The notes beneath the pieces were generated by a model. It made no database searches. It was not told the origin of the DNA and worked only from the letters and a program-made list of their open reading frames with translations. From positions 743,143 through 807,142 of the forward strand of contig JACPJW010000001.1 of the NCBI GenBank assembly GCA_016187335.1: 64,000 bases of DNA. The letters are read 5' to 3'. Below are positions 8,468-25,554 of this stretch, piece by piece; position 1 is the stretch's first letter, and every line of letters starts with the position of its first letter. This DNA comes from Candidatus Aenigmatarchaeota archaeon (GTDB lineage Archaea > Aenigmatarchaeota > Aenigmatarchaeia > GW2011-AR5). The position numbers and the translations under genes were made by a program.

Positions 8468-8890
8468 TCAGACGTCCAAAATCACTCTGGCAATCCATTT
8501 CTTTTCTTTTTTCAATTCAAAGTTGTGGTAAGTCACGGCCTTAACGTCCACAAGCAGCTCATGCTTTTCCATGTCTAATTTCTCTCCGGATACCTTTGCC
8601 GTTAATACAAGGTTCTTTTCGTCTATTTTTACGGAAAATCTGCTCAGCAGAAGCTGTTTGGCGTCCTTCAGGAAAACTATTTCCTGCAAAAAATTGAACA
8701 GCAGCGATTCCAAAGAATCGCTCCTCAGCTTTATTGTTTTCGTCACCTTCGGCTTCACTTTCTTCAGATCCCTGACCATCGTGTTCGTGACAGCCAGGCC
8801 CGCTGACTCAAAAAGCTCTTTCAATGTCCCGCCCGAGGCTTCAAAGGCCACGTCAGCTATGGCAACGTCCTTGAAGAATCTGTAGGGCAT
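8468..8890 (-). CDS. Archease (RtcB activator)
   Basis: ADVAFEA, DVKAVTYH, C-terminal VILDV. Confidence 0.93.
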   Translation of the reverse strand: MPYRFFKDVAIADVAFEASGGTLKELFESAGLAVTNTMVRDLKKVKPKVTKTIKLRSDSLESLLFNFLQEIVFLKDAKQLLLSRFSVKIDEKNLVLTAKVSGEKLDMEKHELLVDVKAVTYHNFELKKEKKWIARVILDV

Positions 8891-17905: not shown

Positions 17906-18808
17906 ATGAAAACTAAAACAAAACGTGGCTATAAAGACCTTTCATATTTCAAGCCAAAAGAATGTCCGTTTTGCCAAGCCAAAGAAGTAATAAAATGGGG
18001 TTTCAGATACAACCACATAACGAAGAAAAGGCGTTACAAATGCAACAAATGTAAGAAGCTCTTTGTAGTTGATGACGGCTTCTGGAAAAGGAAAAAGCAG
18101 AGAGAGTTCATAGCGCAGTGCATAGACCTTTATGTTAATGGCATGTCGCTACGCAAGGTCAAAACACACATAGAGCAGTTTTCAGAAACTACGATAAGTC
18201 ATACAACTATAGCAAGATGGCTTAGGAATTATGCAATTCTTGTAAAGGATTTCACGGATAAACTGCCGATAGAAACAAGCGGTATCTATCATGCAGATGA
18301 GATTTTTGTTAAATGCAACGGGGAAGAAAACTATTATTGGGATGTGATAGACGCACATACACGCTTTCTTGTGGCTACACACTATTCAGATAATAGAAAC
18401 TCTCAAAATGCCAAAATTCTATTCTTGAAAGCAAAGGGCAGAGCCAATCTGCCTAACATAATCTATACGGATGGTTGGAGAGCATATCAAAAGGCGTTCA
18501 GAAAAGTATTCTGGAATCGCTACAAAGAAAACAAAGTGGATTTCATACGCATAATCGAAAAAGAGGACACAAGAAACAACATAGTGGAAAGGATACAGGG
18601 AACTATCAGAGAAAGGATTAAGGTCATGCGTGGATTCAAAAATCCAGAATCCGCTAAGGCACTTCTTGACTTGCTGATAGTTTACTACAATTTTATCCGA
18701 ATACATCAAGGCATACGAATGACGCCTGCGGAGATGTGTGGAGTAAATCTTAATCTTGGACAGAATAAGTGGTTGGGATTGATTTATAGAAGTAAAAACA
18801 AGTTCTAA
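17906..18808 (+). CDS. IS6-family DDE transposase with N-terminal Zn ribbon
   Basis: CPFC..CNKC, GMSLRKV HTH, ADEIF, TDG, NNIVER. Confidence 0.88.
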   Translation: MKTKTKRGYKDLSYFKPKECPFCQAKEVIKWGFRYNHITKKRRYKCNKCKKLFVVDDGFWKRKKQREFIAQCIDLYVNGMSLRKVKTHIEQFSETTISHTTIARWLRNYAILVKDFTDKLPIETSGIYHADEIFVKCNGEENYYWDVIDAHTRFLVATHYSDNRNSQNAKILFLKAKGRANLPNIIYTDGWRAYQKAFRKVFWNRYKENKVDFIRIIEKEDTRNNIVERIQGTIRERIKVMRGFKNPESAKALLDLLIVYYNFIRIHQGIRMTPAEMCGVNLNLGQNKWLGLIYRSKNKF

Positions 18809-19701
18809 GCTTTTGGTGGCAAATTATTTAAGATTCCTGAATCTACAGGTGTTGCTATTCCTACTCCACTCTGTATGTTTTGATTCATAGCATTAATTAT
18901 ATTATTTTGAGTTTGGAGCACTAATTGAAATTCATAAGATATGTTACTTGGAATATTTGCTGTTTGTATACCTGCAAGATTTTCTCGTCCATTAATAATT
19001 CCTATGACTTTTCCACTATTCACTAAAAATACAGGACTTCCACTATTCCCACTATTTACAAAGGAATTTACTGTTATAGTCGGTTTGTTGTTTCTAAGAC
19101 CTTTGAACGATATTATTCCTTCATGTGTTACTTGTGCTGATGAAAAAAATGGATAACCTATAAATGCTACATTTGAACCTACATCATAAGAATCACTTGT
19201 GCCTAATTCTACAGGTGTAAGATTATAATTAACTTTTATTATTGCCATATCCAAGTCTTCATTTCCAAAAAATATATTTGAAGTAATAATTTGAGCAGAT
19301 AATTTTGTTGAATTGCTTAAAACAACAAGAATTGTAGGAGAATTTTCTATTACATGTTTTGCTGTTAATATGTAACCATCAGAACGGATTACAAATCCTG
19401 CTCCACCACTTCCCCATACATTACCATTATTATCAACATATAATTCTGTTGTCTGAATAAAATTAGCTTTATTAGAAGGAGTAATAGGAACTAAAATTTC
19501 AACTACAGAATCACGAAGAGTGTATATAGTCTGCGTTAATCCCTTATTATCGTAAAGTTGGTCAATTTTATAATTTATGTTAGAAAGTTGTTGAGTCAGA
19601 TTTACATTAGAAGTACTAATTTGTTGGCTTAATCCAAAACCCACAACACCAACAACAACAATCGTAATTATGGTAGAGATGACGAGCATCTTCTTGTCCA
19701 T
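18805..19701 (-). CDS. Membrane-anchored trypsin-like serine protease
   Basis: TAKHV, DMAIIK, GNSGSP. Confidence 0.9.
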   Translation of the reverse strand: MDKKMLVISTIITIVVVGVVGFGLSQQISTSNVNLTQQLSNINYKIDQLYDNKGLTQTIYTLRDSVVEILVPITPSNKANFIQTTELYVDNNGNVWGSGGAGFVIRSDGYILTAKHVIENSPTILVVLSNSTKLSAQIITSNIFFGNEDLDMAIIKVNYNLTPVELGTSDSYDVGSNVAFIGYPFFSSAQVTHEGIISFKGLRNNKPTITVNSFVNSGNSGSPVFLVNSGKVIGIINGRENLAGIQTANIPSNISYEFQLVLQTQNNIINAMNQNIQSGVGIATPVDSGILNNLPPKA

Positions 19702-19913
19702 GTCTAAATCTTGATTTTTGCGATATTTAAACTCTGTAAAAAACCTTTTTGGCAACATTTTTTATCGCCTTTTAAAAAGGTGGACAATTAAATACCAACC
19801 GAAGACGTTACAGAACCTAATATTTTTTATTTTCATAAACTACAATAACACATTATCATGTAAAATCTTTTTAAGCCCTGAAATTTTATTATTCAAATAG
19901 GTTGGCAAGATTT

Positions 19914-20315
19914 TTACCAGTTGCATTTTCTGTTTATTCCATCACAAAAATAAGTTAGGCCGTCAAATGTTATATTCTCTTGGTTTTGACACATTATTTT
20001 AACATTTTCATCATTACAGGGATAGTTACAACCAATCTCTCTACTTTCAAAATTTTCTGTTTCAGTATAAGGTACTCCGAAGCATCTCTTTTCTCCAGTA
20101 GGAATACCAAAACAAATATCACTATAACCACAATCTGAACAATTTGTGTGTATGAATCTATACTTCATTCCAAAACAAGACTGTTCATAATAATGTAAAC
20201 CATGGGGAGGACACACAGGACCACATAAAATACCTCCAATATTTCTTGGAAAGAAGAATCCTATTAAAGCGATTATAATGATTCCAATTATCAAAAGCAA
20301 ATATTTTCCATGCAT
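19914..20315 (-). CDS. Cys-rich secreted hypothetical protein
   Basis: N-terminal TM, many Cys, AT-rich. Confidence 0.75.
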   Translation of the reverse strand: MHGKYLLLIIGIIIIALIGFFFPRNIGGILCGPVCPPHGLHYYEQSCFGMKYRFIHTNCSDCGYSDICFGIPTGEKRCFGVPYTETENFESREIGCNYPCNDENVKIMCQNQENITFDGLTYFCDGINRKCNW

Positions 20316-20391
20316 AAATAACAGTAGAATTGAGCTTTATTTAAACATATTGAAAACTTTTGGTTTTCGCCTAATAGAGAGCTGGATCTCG

Positions 20392-20419
20392 GTTGGACTT
20401 AACAAACATTATGAGAACT
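20392..20419. other. dif-like 11-6-11 site (copy 1)
   Basis: GTTGGACTTAA CAAACA TTATGAGAACT. Confidence 0.45.
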
Positions 20420-20595
20420 TTCAAGAATTTAGGTCGAGAGCCTGCAAGGCTCGAGCCGTATAAGCCCTGTTAAGTGAGGCGAGGACGAAGTCCGAGAGTG
20501 CAAAGCCCCAAGGATTTACAAAGTAAATCCGCAGAGTTATTTTAGTGGTGCAAATCAATAAAGGTTTATATATCGGTGTATTCTTCTACTATATA

Positions 20596-21921
20596 ATGAA
20601 AAAAGACTGCATTTTGAGTGGATTAATAGGTTTATGTGTAGGGGATGCTTTAGGTGTACCTGTAGAATTTAAGAGCAGAGATGAATTAAGTAAAAATCCT
20701 GTTGAAAGTATGATTGGAAATGGAACATACAATCAACTTGCCGGAACGTGGTCTGATGACAGTTCTTTAACATTTTGTTTAGCAGAAAGTCTATGTACAG
20801 GATATGATTTAAATGATTTAAGTCTTAAATTTTGTAGATGGTTAAACGAAGGTTATTGGACACCATATGGAAAGGTATTTGATGTTGGGATAAGTACCAA
20901 AAAAGCCATTCAAAATTTATGTAATGGTAAAGAACCTACAAGATCAGGAGGAAATAAGGAACAAGATAATGGTAATGGCTCCTTGATGAGGATACTCCCT
21001 ATTGCATTTTTTACAAATGATATGTATGTTAGCACTATGGTAAAGGTGGTTGAAGAAGTATCTTCTTTGACACATAGACATAATAGATCAATAATTGCTT
21101 GCTCTGCCTATGTTTTTATTGCTAATAATATAATAAGAGGAAAAAACAAAAAAGAAGCTTTTAGATTATTAAGATTAAATCTTCCGTTTTTATTTAGTAA
21201 AGAAAAGGGTGAAGAATATAACAATGAGTTAAAGCATTTCAAAAGAATATTAGATAAGGATTTCTTTAATTTACCTGCAGAAAAAATTAATTCTTCAGGT
21301 TACGTTATTGACACTTTAGAAGCTGCTTTTTGGTGTTTTATGAATAATGATAATTATAAAGACACTGTTCTTTCTGCAGTAAATTTAGGGGAAGATACAG
21401 ATACTGTTGCTGCAATAGCTGGGGGATTAGCAGGGATATATTATGGAATAAATAACATCCCAAAAGAATGGATTGACGCAATAGCAAGAAAGAAAGAAAT
21501 TATCTATTTAGCAAAAAAACTTGATGAATCTCTTAAAAAAAGATGGTCGTATATTGGTTTCGAACTATTGGATAGAATAAATATTAAAAAACCATCTAAA
21601 CATATTATCAAACAAAACTATGAAAAATATATCAAGGATTGTGAAAATGAAGTAAGAGGTGTTTTGCAGTTTTCAGCTTATTCTTTTGGATATCCAGAAT
21701 CAGATCATGCGGTTGTCGATGCTGGGGAAGTAAATAGACAGGTTTGGAGATATTATCATGCTAACAAAAAATTCGATATCTTTTCATTAGGACATTTATG
21801 CACTGCAGTTTTTTTTATTTCAAGAGCAAGGCATCACCAAGGGAGTTATCCTAAGAAACCAGAAGAAGGAGAAGTTGCTATTTCTAAAGAGATTGTTAGA
21901 AGAATACATCAATTACTATAA
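20596..21921 (+). CDS. ADP-ribosylglycohydrolase family protein with C-terminal extension
   Basis: GDALGVP, WSDDS, GNGSLMR, GEDTDTVAAIAG. Confidence 0.93.
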   Translation: MKKDCILSGLIGLCVGDALGVPVEFKSRDELSKNPVESMIGNGTYNQLAGTWSDDSSLTFCLAESLCTGYDLNDLSLKFCRWLNEGYWTPYGKVFDVGISTKKAIQNLCNGKEPTRSGGNKEQDNGNGSLMRILPIAFFTNDMYVSTMVKVVEEVSSLTHRHNRSIIACSAYVFIANNIIRGKNKKEAFRLLRLNLPFLFSKEKGEEYNNELKHFKRILDKDFFNLPAEKINSSGYVIDTLEAAFWCFMNNDNYKDTVLSAVNLGEDTDTVAAIAGGLAGIYYGINNIPKEWIDAIARKKEIIYLAKKLDESLKKRWSYIGFELLDRINIKKPSKHIIKQNYEKYIKDCENEVRGVLQFSAYSFGYPESDHAVVDAGEVNRQVWRYYHANKKFDIFSLGHLCTAVFFISRARHHQGSYPKKPEEGEVAISKEIVRRIHQLL

Positions 21922-22033: not shown

Positions 22034-23532
22034 CTACCCTTTCACATTCCCTATCGGCACGAGCTTGCAGACCTTCTTTGAAAGCCCTGCCGTATGAACC
22101 ACTTCTATCACTTCGTCAATGTCCTTGTAAGCGCCGCCTGCTTCCTCGGCTAAGCCTGCAAACGAAACAGTTTTTACTAAAATCCCTTTCTTTTCCATGT
22201 CCCTTTGCAGTTTATCGCCGCGCCACATCTGCCTTGCGCGCGTCCTGCTCATTGTCCTGCCTGAGCCGTGGCACGTGGAGCAGAACGTTTCCGCAGCCTT
22301 ATCGCCGCCGACAAGCAGGTACGAGCCCGTTTCCATTGAGCCTCCGATGATCACCGGCGAGCCGTCGTTCCTGTACATTTCCGGTATTTCCTCGCGGCCT
22401 GCGGGATAGCTGCCTGTCGCACCCTTCCTATGGACTAAAACCTCTTTTGTCTGGCCGTCTACTTTGTGCTTCTCCAGGGATGCCCGGTTGTGAGCGACGT
22501 CGAATACCATGTGCATGTCCATGTCCTCGGCGCTGCGCTTGAATACGGAAGAAAACACCTCGCGGACGCGGTGCAAAATAACTTGCCTGTTCGCGAAGGA
22601 CATGTTTACCGCGCATTTCATAGCAGTGAAATAGTCCTGTCCCTCTGGCGAGTTGAAAGGCGCGCACGCAAGCTCGCGGTCAAGAATCTTTATTTTATAT
22701 TTCCTTTCCATGACGTTGAGAAATGACTGAAGGTAATCCGTAGCAACCTGGTGCCCGAAGCCGCGCGAGCCGCAATGGAACATGATTACAATTTGCCCTG
22801 GGAACAAGCCCCATTTCTTCGCAAGCTCTTTGTTGTGTATATTTTCTTCCTTTACCCACTGGACTTCAAGATAATGATTTCCCGAGCCGAGCGTGCCTAT
22901 CTGGTTGAAGCCGCGCTCTACTGACCTGCTGCTTATTTTTCTTGAATCCGCGCCTTCCATCCTGCCGTTCAGTTCGCAGCGCTTCAGGTCTTCTTTCCAT
23001 CCGTAATCATGCTCAACGCACCATTCCGCGCCTTCCTCAACGACCTTGCGGAACTCGTCCTTCGTTAATTTAACAAATCCTGTCGAGCCTACGCCTGCAG
23101 GCACCCTTTTGAAAAGCATGTCTACAAGCTCTTTCAGCTTGGGCTTCACGTCGTTTATAGTAAGGTTTGTAGTAACCAGTCTCATCCCGCAGTTCACGTC
23201 GAATCCGATTCCGCCAGGAGATATAACTCCTTCGTTAGCATCAAAAGCAGCAACTCCGCCGATTGGGAATCCGTAGCCCGATTTGCCTCTCTTCAGATAC
23301 CTGAAAAGATATGACCGTCAGGCATACAGAACGCGTGATTGATAATTCCGGGAAGCGTTGCGACGTTCGCTATCTGGTCGAAAACCATCAGGTCCATATC
23401 GTCAATGAGCTTTTTCGACGCGTACATCCGCGCAGGGACCTTCATACCCTGCTTGAATGAAGTAGGTATCTCCCAGATTACGTCGCTGATTTTTTTCAGT
23501 TCCGGTTTTTTCAAATTTGTCCCCCAAACCAT
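22034..23532 (-). CDS. rtcB: tRNA-splicing ligase RtcB, split by a 29-nt putative intron (489 aa when spliced)
   Basis: MPDGH|SGYGFPIGG, DVNCG, GTLGSGNH, HCGSRG, HRKGAT, CHGSGR, EEAGGAYKD; SD AGGAGGTGA. Confidence 0.95.
23282..23310 (-). other. Putative BHB-type mRNA intron in rtcB
   Basis: ATCTTTTCAGGTATCTGAAGAGAGGCAAA; 9-bp hairpin with an in-frame TGA; removal restores frame and motif. Confidence 0.85.
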
Positions 23533-24371
23533 TAATTCACCTCCTCTAATTTTGAAAATTGGTTTTCTTTTATAGTTAAACAATAGTATAAACTTCCCCA
23601 GTTATTTTCCCATGGTCCTAATATTTTTGATTTAATTCCAATTGAGTTTAATCTATTCCTTAGCTCATTAAGATTTCTTTTTATAATCGAATTCATTCTG
23701 ATTTCCTTTCTTTTAATACTTAACCTACCATTTTCTCTTATGAATTTTATTATTTCGGCTTTTTCTTTTGGTAATGTCCATTCATACGACTGATAGGAAT
23801 TTAAGGCTTCTTCTAATTTTTCTTTTTTACGTGGATGAAGAAACCCTATGTACTTTTCAAACTTAAGCAAATCATCCTTACCACATATAGTAAGCGACCA
23901 TATGTTTCTATTTTTTCTTTTCTTGATTGTAGAAGTAATTTTGAAATGTCTTTTCATGACTTTTTTGATTTGGTAAAGACCTTTCTTATTTATTGAATCT
24001 AGGCCAATTTTCCTGTCCTTTGCTTTGACAACAGAGACCCATCCATCACAATCAAAATACGATCTTAACCAACTAGAAAGTAAATTTTTGGATAATTTCG
24101 GCAAAGACCATTTATCTGAATAATAAGTGAAATTTTTTGTTAAAATAAAGAAAAGATTTTTATTTTGAATTTTGCATCTTTCTTCTGTTAAGACTGGTCT
24201 TATTCCAAATTTTCTGTGAAATTTTTCTTGAAAATCTTTCAACAAAGTAAGATTTGTATTTCTTAAACCAATATAGTAGTATTTGTGCTTCTGTGATTTA
24301 GGATTTGTAATTACGTAACCATCAGCACAAAGATAGCCATGTATAGAAGCAAGATTTTTGTTGAATTTCAT
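23532..24371 (-). CDS. Free-standing double-motif LAGLIDADG homing endonuclease-like protein
   Basis: IHGYLCADG and LRSYFDCDG motifs; AT-rich; TAATG overlap with rtcB start. Confidence 0.88.
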   Translation of the reverse strand: MKFNKNLASIHGYLCADGYVITNPKSQKHKYYYIGLRNTNLTLLKDFQEKFHRKFGIRPVLTEERCKIQNKNLFFILTKNFTYYSDKWSLPKLSKNLLSSWLRSYFDCDGWVSVVKAKDRKIGLDSINKKGLYQIKKVMKRHFKITSTIKKRKNRNIWSLTICGKDDLLKFEKYIGFLHPRKKEKLEEALNSYQSYEWTLPKEKAEIIKFIRENGRLSIKRKEIRMNSIIKRNLNELRNRLNSIGIKSKILGPWENNWGSLYYCLTIKENQFSKLEEVN

Positions 24372-24461
24372 CTTGATAATTATGTTGCCATTTATTTAAA
24401 CCTAATGTTCGTTAGTCAAATTTTTCTAAAGATATAAATTAATTTGTTAGAAAAAAGCGTT

Positions 24462-25098: not shown

Positions 25099-25554
25099 TT
25101 AGTCCTTCCCCTTGAAAAAAAGCCAGTTGTTGCCGCGCCCCGCAAAGGCGGTTTTAATCAGTATATACCTGCCCTTTAATTTTCTTCCATGCACGCGGAA
25201 AACAATCTTGTTCCTCTTGATGCTCTCGGGCTCGTACCAGCCGCGGTCCCATATCTTGACGGCGCCGGCGCCGTACTGGCCTTCCGGTATGCGCCCGGCA
25301 AAGCGCGCATAAGCCTTGGGATGGTCTTCCGTCTGGACAGCCAGTCTCTTCTCGCCTGGTCCGAGCAAAGGCGTTTTCGGCAAGGCCCATGATTTCAGGA
25401 TGCCTTTCTGCTCAAGCCTTAAGTCCCAGTGAAGCCTCGTCGCCTTATGTTCTTGGATAACATAAATTAGCTTCTTGCCGTATTTGGCAATTTTAGGCTT
25501 AGGTTCTTTTGTTTTAGAAAAGTTCCTTTTCTTCTTGTAAGCGGCTAGGGACAT
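25099..25554 (-). CDS. Stand-alone LigD 3'-phosphoesterase domain protein
   Basis: QEHKATRLHWDLRLE, SWALPK, TEDHP, YGAG, IWD. Confidence 0.92.
   Translation of the reverse strand: MSLAAYKKKRNFSKTKEPKPKIAKYGKKLIYVIQEHKATRLHWDLRLEQKGILKSWALPKTPLLGPGEKRLAVQTEDHPKAYARFAGRIPEGQYGAGAVKIWDRGWYEPESIKRNKIVFRVHGRKLKGRYILIKTAFAGRGNNWLFFKGKD

What the first reader, a model, noticed from the sequence alone, without database searches (positions are those of the whole stretch)
23282..23310. The RNA ligase gene rtcB carries a BHB-type mRNA intron in its own active-site motif
Seen: the coding strand reads ATG CCT GAC GGT CAT [ATCTTTTCAG GTAT CTGAAGAGA GGCAAA] TCG GGC TAC GGA TTC CCA ATC GGC GGA. The 29-nt insert follows His74, contains an in-frame TGA (79-aa product if unspliced) and shifts the frame. 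It folds into a 9-bp stem (TCTTTTCAG/CTGAAGAGA), a 3-nt bulge ATA, a 4-nt central helix GGTC/GGCA (one G.A) and a 3-nt bulge AAT; exon pairing GCCTG/CGGGC is possible but slightly offset. Cutting after the second nt of each bulge removes exactly these 29 nt and restores MPDGHSGYGFPIGG in a 489-aa RtcB with its other motifs intact. Established: archaeal EndA cuts BHB motifs this way, RtcB with archease ligates the ends, and cbf5 is the main known archaeal mRNA intron. Inference: RtcB synthesis depends on RtcB activity, an auto-regulatory splicing loop reminiscent of IRE1/XBP1. I do not know of a prior description.
Basis: partly seen in the sequence, partly recalled or inferred. Interest (0 to 1): 0.95.

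Follow-up and report, generated by a model that had tools for sequence, protein, structure and literature searches.

The report
Mini-intron inside the RNA ligase gene
The only gene for the RNA-joining enzyme RtcB in this tiny groundwater archaeon is interrupted by a 29-base insert shaped like an archaeal tRNA-type intron, relatives carry similar inserts nearby, and a homing-endonuclease gene next door may be what spreads them.

Summary
A 29-nt insert (window 23282-23310, minus strand) follows the His74 codon of the only rtcB in a 1.01-Mb genome. It shifts the frame, and its removal gives a 489-aa RtcB.

The insert folds as a relaxed bulge-helix-bulge (BHB) motif. An independent groundwater study holds both halves of it, so it is not an assembly error.

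It is not a one-off. I resolved 30 short inserts (17-33 nt) in 27 genomes or records of the same archaeal class. They sit at 8 sites within about 32 codons of the rtcB active-site region. With splice sites fixed by the protein alignment alone, 25 of these were scored: 82 of 100 central-helix positions pair in register, against 26-54 of 100 when slid.

EndA and archease are present. No second rtcB or ATP-dependent RNA ligase family was found. No RNA data exist, so splicing is inferred.

New here: a free-standing LAGLIDADG endonuclease gene lies directly upstream, its stop overlapping the rtcB start. Its close homologues were found only beside rtcB (12 of 12), always with an insert within 13 nt after the His codon. 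This suggests collaborative homing rather than evolved autoregulation. Four literature searches found no prior description.

The parts
23311..23532 (-). rtcB exon 1 (74 codons, ATG at 23532-23530, ends with the His74 codon CAT)
   Evidence: matches Pfam RtcB profile positions 1-22.
23282..23310 (-). 29-nt BHB-type intron. Coding strand: A + 9-nt stem arm + GTAT loop + 9-nt stem arm + GGCA + AA.
   Evidence: present in an independent study's contigs.
23288..23309 (-). Intron hairpin h': arms 23301-23309 and 23288-23296, loop 23297-23300
   Evidence: 9 of 9 pairs form in the minimum-free-energy fold. The helix starts exactly one base after the 5' cut.
23313..23316 (-). 5' strand of the central helix H (GGTC, last bases of the Gly-His codons). 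It pairs with intron bases 23284-23287 (GGCA): G.A, G-C, U.G, C-G.
   Evidence: Among 10 site-a introns examined, the third position co-varies (U.G, C-G, U-A, one C.A); seen.
22034..23281 (-). rtcB exon 2 (415 codons plus stop)
   Evidence: Pfam RtcB E = 2.7e-158, profile positions 24-426, no internal stop.
23532..24371 (-). Free-standing LAGLIDADG homing-endonuclease gene (279 aa, about 28% G+C). Its TAA stop overlaps the rtcB ATG as TAATG.
   Evidence: Pfam LAGLIDADG_3, E = 1.1e-25, two stretches. Sequence and composition. Homologues lie next to intron-bearing rtcB in 12 of 12 cases. Both motif acidic residues are conserved in 5 of 5 intact copies.
8471..8860 (-). Archease gene (RtcB cofactor)
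   Evidence: Pfam PF01951, E = 5.5e-39 at G000:C2:751613-752002, converted to window coordinates.

Best explanation
The 29 nt are a protein-spliced (BHB-type) intron in the rtcB pre-mRNA.

Inferred steps:
- The transcript folds so that the last bases of exon 1 (GGUC) pair with the 3' end of the intron (GGCA), next to a 9-bp intron hairpin.
- The cell's single alpha-type splicing endonuclease EndA cuts two bases 3' of each strand of that helix (CAU|A and AA|U).
- Pre-existing RtcB, with archease, joins the exons. This restores the frame and the metal-binding motif PDGH-SGYGFPIGG.
- Unspliced mRNA gives only a 79-aa fragment, so new RtcB can be made only where RtcB already exists. This is a self-dependence, not necessarily a regulator.

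The position of the intron is most likely a legacy of DNA-level mobility. The LAGLIDADG endonuclease gene directly upstream probably cuts intron-less rtcB DNA in the segment coding PDGHxGYGFP. The intron would break that target and protect its own genome, and repair of a cut allele would copy endonuclease gene, exon 1 and intron together (collaborative homing).

Shown: the sequence, the fold, the comparative pattern, the gene content and the synteny. Inferred: cleavage, ligation, endonuclease activity and its target.
For: 1. Frame and protein. Removal gives a full 489-aa RtcB. The two exons match contiguous parts of the Pfam profile.

2. Single copy. rtcB is the only copy in a genome that is 90.8% complete. 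EndA (202 aa with both N- and C-terminal domains; best solved match 1a79) and archease are present. PF09414 RNA ligase was not found.

3. Fold. -27.9 kcal/mol, z = -3.66.

4. Real DNA. Both halves of the insert are present in an independent study's contigs.

5. Relatives.
- In the order, 14 of the 62 genomes with an rtcB match (70 searched) have short inserts in the gene. This is a lower bound, because some genes are fragments.
- Inserts also occur in further families of the class.
- In all, 30 inserts of 17-33 nt were resolved, at 8 sites. Some lengths are multiples of three but contain in-frame stops.

6. Geometry test (25 introns, splice sites taken from the protein alignment).
- H positions paired: 82 of 100 in register, against 26-54 of 100 with the partner slid by 1-3.
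- First three hairpin pairs: 71 of 75, against 29-45 of 75.
- The 5' exon ends in AT in 24 of 25.

7. Canonical cases. Several inserts are canonical BHBs with a perfect 4-bp H:
- G050 site c, 17 nt with a GAAA loop.
- G056 and G045 site d.
- G086 site e.
- G165 and G198 site b2.

8. Covariation. Hairpin sequences differ while pairing is kept, for example G048 against G050 with U-A changed to C-G.

9. Codon bias.
- The His codon is CAT in 10 of 10 genes with a site-a intron, against 15 of 38 others.
- The preceding Gly codon is GGY in 10 of 10, against 11 of 23 Gly codons elsewhere.

10. Endonuclease link.
- In a 301-genome class sample, 9 genomes have a homologue at E <= 1e-30. All 9 lie beside rtcB, and all 9 rtcB genes carry an insert within 13 nt after the His codon.
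- G016, G003 and record L042 bring this to 12 of 12.
- No other homologue in the 44 genomes of the family lies beside rtcB (one search compared).
- 5 copies are intact with conserved catalytic Asp/Glu; 4 carry stops (G016, G250, G092 and the partial G003 copy).
Against: - No RNA evidence: no listed sequencing run is RNA, so neither the spliced junction nor a circular intron has been seen.
- The 3' splice site of this particular intron is not a clean 3-nt bulge. The helix has a G.A at one end and the loop is 2x3.
- The only EndA is of the homotetramer-like alpha type. The passages I read in PMC5829648 describe that type as strict for canonical BHB. The same paper notes loop-bearing alpha4 enzymes in DPANN lineages with many disrupted tRNAs.
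- A naive genome-wide scan for BHB plus restored reading frame found no excess over a decoy geometry (232 against 210). I therefore cannot show other mRNA introns in this genome.
- For the homing part: no nuclease assay and no known target. No clear co-conversion signal in exon 1. 13 genomes have site a/b introns without an adjacent endonuclease gene. That fits loss after fixation but is also what no link at all would give for those genomes.
- Related genomes are not independent, so the counts overstate the number of separate events.
Confidence: 0.82

Rival explanations
1. The intron is real and has been kept because it regulates. By making RtcB synthesis depend on EndA and RtcB activity, it tunes ligase level to splicing capacity.
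For: - rtcB is single-copy and no PF09414 ligase was found, so self-dependence is a logical consequence.
- Inserts recur in rtcB at 8 sites across many families.
- cbf5, the classical host of an archaeal mRNA intron, is uninterrupted here.
Against: - The dependence is positive feedback, which cannot by itself hold a level steady.
- Most relatives lack any insert: 48 of the 62 order genomes with an rtcB match.
- Presence varies within a genus. In genus g9, G009 has none, G056 has two, and G057 has two different alleles.
- Inteins and a dedicated homing-endonuclease gene crowd the same codons, which is the signature of selfish elements that target conserved DNA.
Confidence: 0.15
2. rtcB is a decaying pseudogene, and the insert is simply a frame-breaking insertion.
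For: The unspliced frame stops after 79 aa. The genome is small and reduced.
Against: - It is the only rtcB in a 90.8% complete genome.
- The 415 codons downstream are open and score E = 2.7e-158.
- The only lesion is a structured insert whose removal is exact.
- At least 26 other genomes or records have the same kind of insert, each with an otherwise intact gene.
Confidence: 0.04
3. The ribosome hops over the 29 nt (translational bypassing, as in phage T4 gene 60), or shifts frame, without RNA splicing.
For: There is a hairpin and an in-frame stop shortly after the take-off point.
Against: - There are no matching take-off and landing codons around the insert.
- Insert lengths vary from 17 to 33 nt at 8 sites, yet all obey the BHB cut geometry, which involves exon-intron pairing. 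Bypassing does not predict this.
Confidence: 0.03
4. The insert is an assembly or sequencing artefact.
For: The genome is metagenome-assembled. In run X5 the contigs break inside the hairpin.
Against: - Contigs at about 70x and 15x depth span the region unchanged.
- An independent study holds both halves of the insert with zero differences.
- No contig skips it.
- Relatives from other assemblies have homologous inserts.
Confidence: 0.01

Closest known systems
cbf5 pre-mRNA intron of Crenarchaeota (Watanabe 2002; Yokobori 2009, PMC2738675) and the HVO_1309 5'-UTR intron of Haloferax
   Same: A short intron in a protein-coding transcript, bounded by a somewhat relaxed BHB motif and removed by the tRNA splicing endonuclease and a ligase. 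Passages read: PMC10485636, PMC7714728.
   Different: - The host gene is the ligase itself.
- The lineage is a DPANN (Woesearchaeota-like) class with a single alpha-type EndA, not the hetero-oligomeric enzyme linked to cbf5.
- There are 8 insertion sites in about 32 codons rather than one.
- The introns are as short as 17 nt.
- A dedicated endonuclease gene accompanies them.
- Splicing is not yet shown.
Collaborative homing of a group I intron and a free-standing endonuclease (F-CphI with psbA in cyanophage S-PM2; Zeng, Bonocora and Shub 2009, as described in PMC6083498, passages read)
   Same: A free-standing homing-endonuclease gene lies next to an intron-bearing gene, and the intron itself has no endonuclease ORF. 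In the model the intron breaks the enzyme's target, and the enzyme mobilises both.
   Different: - The intron here is protein-spliced (BHB), not self-splicing.
- The enzyme is a LAGLIDADG protein.
- The host is a cellular archaeon, not a phage.
- The cleavage target and the protection are untested.
Archaeal rRNA BHB introns that encode LAGLIDADG homing endonucleases (such as I-DmoI; recalled, not read here)
   Same: A BHB intron combined with a LAGLIDADG endonuclease as a mobile unit in a highly conserved target sequence.
   Different: There the endonuclease ORF lies inside a long intron in an rRNA gene. Here the ORF is outside, upstream of a protein gene, and the intron is 17-33 nt.
IRE1/XBP1 (HAC1) unconventional mRNA splicing
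   Same: A very short frame-shifting intron is cut out by a protein endonuclease at stem-loops, and RtcB joins the exons (general knowledge; RtcB's role in XBP-1 is named in the abstract of PMC8718801, search listing).
   Different: A different endonuclease (IRE1, not EndA) and a different motif. That system is a stress-signalling switch. Here no signal is known, and the substrate encodes the ligase.
RtcB inteins
   Same: Selfish intervening elements in the same active-site region. Relatives carry inteins at IN|CG (open frames of 827-1033 aa) and at GF|CIGG (L043).
   Different: Inteins are removed from the protein, not from the RNA, and they carry their endonuclease domain internally.

Membership tests
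Archaeal BHB (bulge-helix-bulge) intron | Two 3-nt bulges on opposite strands, separated by a 4-bp helix | tested here: inconclusive
   The 5' bulge AUA and the hairpin are canonical. The helix has 3 pairs plus a G.A. The 3' site lies in a 2x3 internal loop, so this is a relaxed form. Related rtcB introns at other sites meet the feature fully, with perfect 4-bp H: G050 c, G056 d, G086 e, G165 b2.
Archaeal BHB (bulge-helix-bulge) intron | Cuts at symmetric positions, two bases 3' of each helix strand, give functional exons | tested here: met
   These cuts remove exactly 29 nt and restore RtcB. The same rule fits 25 of 25 scored introns, with 82 of 100 H positions paired against 26-54 of 100 when slid.
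Archaeal BHB (bulge-helix-bulge) intron | The genome encodes the splicing endonuclease and the ligase system | tested here: met
   EndA, rtcB, archease.
Archaeal BHB (bulge-helix-bulge) intron | Spliced RNA and excised (circular) intron observed | not testable with these tools
   No RNA run holds the sequence.
RtcB 3'-phosphate RNA ligase (PF01139) | Full-length match to the family profile | tested here: met
   Exon 1 matches profile positions 1-22 (E = 0.0018, below the cut-off on its own). Exon 2 matches positions 24-426 (E = 2.7e-158). Ligase activity was not tested.
LAGLIDADG homing endonuclease | Two LAGLIDADG motifs, each ending in a catalytic acidic residue | tested here: met
   Pfam LAGLIDADG_3, two stretches. 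The motifs ..YLCADGYV.. and ..FDC(D/E)(G/A)WV.. have Asp and Asp/Glu in 5 of 5 intact homologues. No solved relative at E <= 0.01.
LAGLIDADG homing endonuclease | Site-specific DNA cleavage of an allele that lacks the element | not testable with these tools
   Needs an enzyme assay.
Collaborative homing (free-standing endonuclease plus ORF-less intron) | The endonuclease gene lies next to the intron-bearing target gene, and the intron has no ORF | tested here: met
   12 of 12 close homologues lie beside rtcB with an insert at sites a, b1, b2 or b3.
Collaborative homing (free-standing endonuclease plus ORF-less intron) | The enzyme cuts the intron-less allele at or near the intron insertion site, and the intron prevents self-cleavage | not testable with these tools
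   Inferred only.
IRE1/XBP1-type regulated unconventional splicing | A signal-activated endonuclease, with splicing that switches protein output in response to a stimulus | not tested
   No IRE1-like component was sought and no expression data are available. The likeness is by mechanism only.

The most novel reading that the evidence does not exclude
BHB mini-introns in this archaeal class are mobile at the DNA level. A dedicated, rtcB-specific, free-standing LAGLIDADG endonuclease targets the DNA that codes the RtcB metal-binding motif. The 17-33-nt intron is both its immunity element and its passenger.

This would be the first case of collaborative homing for a protein-spliced intron, and the first in a cellular archaeon. 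It would leave the RNA ligase permanently dependent on its own activity for expression.
Probability: 0.5. Interest if true: 0.92.

Novelty: new variant of a known kind. Interest (0 to 1): 0.86.

Why it matters
Only two archaeal mRNAs are named as splicing-endonuclease substrates in the passages of the 2023 review I read (cbf5 and HVO_1309). That review states that more probably remain to be discovered. Here the substrate is the gene of the ligase that must finish the reaction. The inserts recur at 8 sites in many uncultured DPANN genomes, which will be annotated as having a broken or missing rtcB.

If the endonuclease link holds, it gives a testable mechanism for how BHB introns enter protein genes. 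It would also explain why introns, inteins and endonucleases pile up on one active-site motif. It would add a natural, very small (17-nt) EndA substrate and a new sequence-specific LAGLIDADG enzyme.

Tried and rejected
- RNA evidence. The look-up of sequencing runs listed no RNA holder, so expression and splicing could not be examined.

- Genome-wide search for further mRNA introns in G000. I scanned for BHB geometry plus a restored reading frame. The lax criteria gave 4686 candidates against 4105 for a decoy geometry. The stricter criteria gave 232 against 210. The rtcB intron was recovered, but the scan does not discriminate, so I make no claim either way.

- Co-conversion of exon 1 among endonuclease-bearing loci: no clear signal.

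- tRNA introns. aragorn with intron search predicted 23 tRNA genes, 18 of them with introns, some implausibly long. I treat this as unverified. The window itself has no tRNA and no Rfam hit.

- The roughly 165-nt insert in G026 after GFD. I could not place its boundaries by the BHB rule.

- G057:C12 starts inside a site-a intron, so it was not scored.

- Solved structures. The endonuclease has no match at E <= 0.01.

- Literature. Searches found no rtcB intron. Tocchini-Valentini 2011 (PMC3064391) is not held and was not read. Supplementary files were not consulted.

- The class survey listed only the best 150 matches, with 200 unlisted, so counts of interrupted genes are lower bounds.

Full report
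**What is there**

rtcB lies on the minus strand. Exon 1 runs from the ATG at 23532 to 23311 (74 codons, ending in CAT for His74). The 29 nt at 23310-23282 follow, and exon 2 runs from 23281 to the stop at 22034. Read through, the frame ends after 79 aa. With the 29 nt removed it gives a 489-aa protein. Exon 1 matches positions 1-22 of the Pfam RtcB profile and exon 2 matches positions 24-426 (E = 2.7e-158).

**The fold**

A 74-nt stretch folds at -27.9 kcal/mol (z = -3.66; 1 of 200 shuffles folds as well). The fold has:
- a 9-bp hairpin with a GUAU loop;
- a 3-nt bulge AUA;
- a short helix between the exon bases GUC and the intron bases GGC, whose fourth position is G.A;
- a 2x3 internal loop;
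- twelve exon-exon pairs.

The 5' half is a textbook BHB. The 3' site is relaxed.

**Is the DNA real?**

The genome has 1,014,551 bases in 2 contigs and is 90.8% complete. It has one rtcB. Contigs of two runs of the probable source study cover 22800-23800 without a difference. An independent groundwater study holds two contigs, 23001-23292 and 23294-23564, both identical to the window, which together contain both halves of the insert. No contig skips the insert. No RNA run is available, so splicing cannot be observed.

**Relatives**

I searched the RtcB family through 41 relatives, all 44 genomes of the family, 70 of the order, and a 301-genome sample of the class. I then read the 5' parts of the interrupted genes.

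In the order, 14 of the 62 genomes with an rtcB match carry short inserts. In all I resolved 30 inserts of 17-33 nt in 27 genomes or records, at 8 sites:

| Site | Position | Genomes or records |
|---|---|---|
| a | after the His codon | G000, G008, G014, G003, G039, G056, L042, G122, G091, G079, G246 |
| b1 | 7 nt further | G016, G048, G050, G092, G160, G217 |
| b2 | 9 nt further | G036, G062, G165, G198, G219, G284 |
| b3 | 13 nt further | G250 |
| c | PGG\|IGFD | G050 |
| e | GIG\|YD | G086 |
| d | GFD\|INCG | G056, G057, G045 |
| f | GFDI\|NCG | G079 |

Some lengths are multiples of three but contain stops, so these are not simple frameshift errors. Many relatives also have inteins at IN|CG, and one has an intein at GF|CIGG.

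**Geometry test**

I took the splice sites from the protein alignment only. I then asked whether the BHB rule holds, namely a helix of four positions with cuts two bases 3' of each strand and the hairpin starting right after the third bulge base. For the 25 introns in hand:
- 82 of 100 helix positions pair in register, against 26-54 of 100 when the partner is slid by 1-3 bases;
- 71 of 75 of the first three hairpin pairs form, against 29-45 of 75;
- 24 of 25 5' exons end in AT.

Several introns are perfect canonical BHBs. One is a 17-nt intron with a GAAA loop and helix GAGG/CCUC in G050. Site d has UUCG/CGAA, changing to UUCG/CGAG in G045. G086 has UAGG/CCUA. G079 site f has CGAC/GUCG.

Hairpin sequences differ between genomes while the pairing is kept. 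G048 and G050 differ by a U-A to C-G double change. At site a the third helix pair is U.G, C-G or U-A, with one C.A. In G122 the G.A becomes G.U.

Synonymous codon choice also fits pairing or a target preference. His is CAT in 10 of 10 site-a genes against 15 of 38 others. The preceding Gly is GGY in 10 of 10 against 11 of 23. Related genomes are not independent, so these counts overstate the number of events.

**Machinery**

EndA is a single 202-aa protein with both Pfam domains. Its best solved match is 1a79 (E = 6e-33); I recall that entry as the homotetrameric Methanocaldococcus enzyme. Archease lies in the window at about 8471-8860. The ATP-dependent RNA ligase family PF09414 was not found. 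cbf5 is uninterrupted.

The passages I read in PMC5829648 say that alpha4 enzymes were thought strict for canonical BHB. They also say that loop-bearing alpha4 enzymes of DPANN go with many disrupted tRNA genes. Whether this EndA accepts the relaxed 3' site is the main open biochemical point.

**The neighbour**

Directly upstream lies a 279-aa ORF of about 28% G+C, while rtcB is about 50%. Its TAA overlaps the rtcB ATG as TAATG. It is a two-motif LAGLIDADG protein.

- Within the 44 genomes of the family, its only close homologues lie immediately upstream of rtcB, in G016 and G003. Record L042 shows the same arrangement.
- In the 301-genome class sample, 9 genomes have a homologue at E <= 1e-30: G000, G092, G122, G160, G198, G217, G246, G250 and G284. 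All 9 lie beside rtcB. They are on the same strand and upstream, except in genus g53, where they are divergent.
- All 9 of those rtcB genes carry an insert at site a, b1, b2 or b3.
- With G016, G003 and L042 this makes 12 of 12.
- Five copies are intact, 53-59% identical, with both catalytic acidic residues conserved. Four carry stops.
- Thirteen genomes have a/b-site introns without the gene.
- The introns near GFDINCG are not linked to it in the genomes searched for it. Some of those genomes (G026, G039) were checked only by a flank or not at all.

**Reading**

The core claim is that this is a BHB-type intron removed by EndA and rejoined by RtcB with archease. It rests on sequence, fold and a broad comparative pattern. 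I put it at about 0.8-0.85, and the missing piece is RNA evidence.

Self-dependence of RtcB follows from that claim. I see no evidence that it is a tuned regulator.

The position in the active-site motif, the intein crowding and the exclusive endonuclease synteny fit the life cycle of homing elements. They fit in particular the collaborative homing described for cyanophage psbA (PMC6083498, passages read). In that scheme the enzyme cuts intron-less rtcB in the PDGHxGYGFP-coding DNA, the intron breaks the site, and repair copies the enzyme gene, the 222-bp exon 1 and the intron. This part is inference, at about 0.5.

**Novelty**

Searches of the held library and passages of reviews name only cbf5 and HVO_1309 as archaeal mRNA substrates. 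I found no rtcB intron and no BHB intron paired with a free-standing endonuclease. Papers that are not open access were not searched, and one key paper was not held.

The closest named relatives of the RtcB protein are groundwater MAGs labelled Candidatus Woesearchaeota, at 72-75% identity.

Noticed in passing
relatives: G018, G019, G040, G023, G041-G043, G048, G050, G053-G055, G058, G067; L043: Many relatives have an intein in rtcB at IN|CG (open frames of 827-1033 aa). One record has an intein at GF|CIGG. G048 and G050 carry both an intein and mini-introns in the same gene.
   Followed up: partly
G057:C12 and G057:C42 (L033, L034): One genome bin holds two rtcB alleles. One has a site-a intron but no site-d intron; the other has the reverse. 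This points to strain-level presence/absence variation (the bin has 3% contamination).
   Followed up: no
L029 (G039, another family of the order); Its rtcB is the closest to the window's (84% identity in exon 1, 81% in the C-terminal part). Members of the window's own family are about 60-73% identical. This suggests possible horizontal transfer of rtcB together with its site-a intron.
   Followed up: no
window 18800-21900 and 23550-24400: Stretches of 27-32% G+C flank rtcB, which is 49-58% G+C. The left one includes a 458-aa ADP-ribosylglycohydrolase gene (20545-21921, +). The right one is the LAGLIDADG gene.
   Followed up: partly
window 25099-25554 (-): A stand-alone 151-aa LigD_N 3'-phosphoesterase-domain protein (E = 9e-38) lies about 1.6 kb from rtcB. 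It may be an end-healing partner, or the proximity may be coincidence.
   Followed up: no
L020 (G026), after GFD of rtcB: An insert of about 165 nt with several stops sits at about the site-d position. It is much longer than the other inserts, and I could not fit its boundaries to the BHB rule.
   Followed up: partly
whole genome G000: aragorn with intron search found only 23 tRNA genes and predicted introns in 18 of them, at varied positions. If real, this genome has heavily interrupted tRNA genes, but the prediction is unverified.
   Followed up: no
loci L046, L048-L120: Dozens of bacterial MAGs (Syntrophobacteraceae, Latescibacterota and others) encode RtcB that is 64-68% identical to this archaeal protein. 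All but two of them showed the PDxH-GYGFPIGG motif uninterrupted; the two were L043, with an intein, and L089, which is cut by its contig end.
   Followed up: partly
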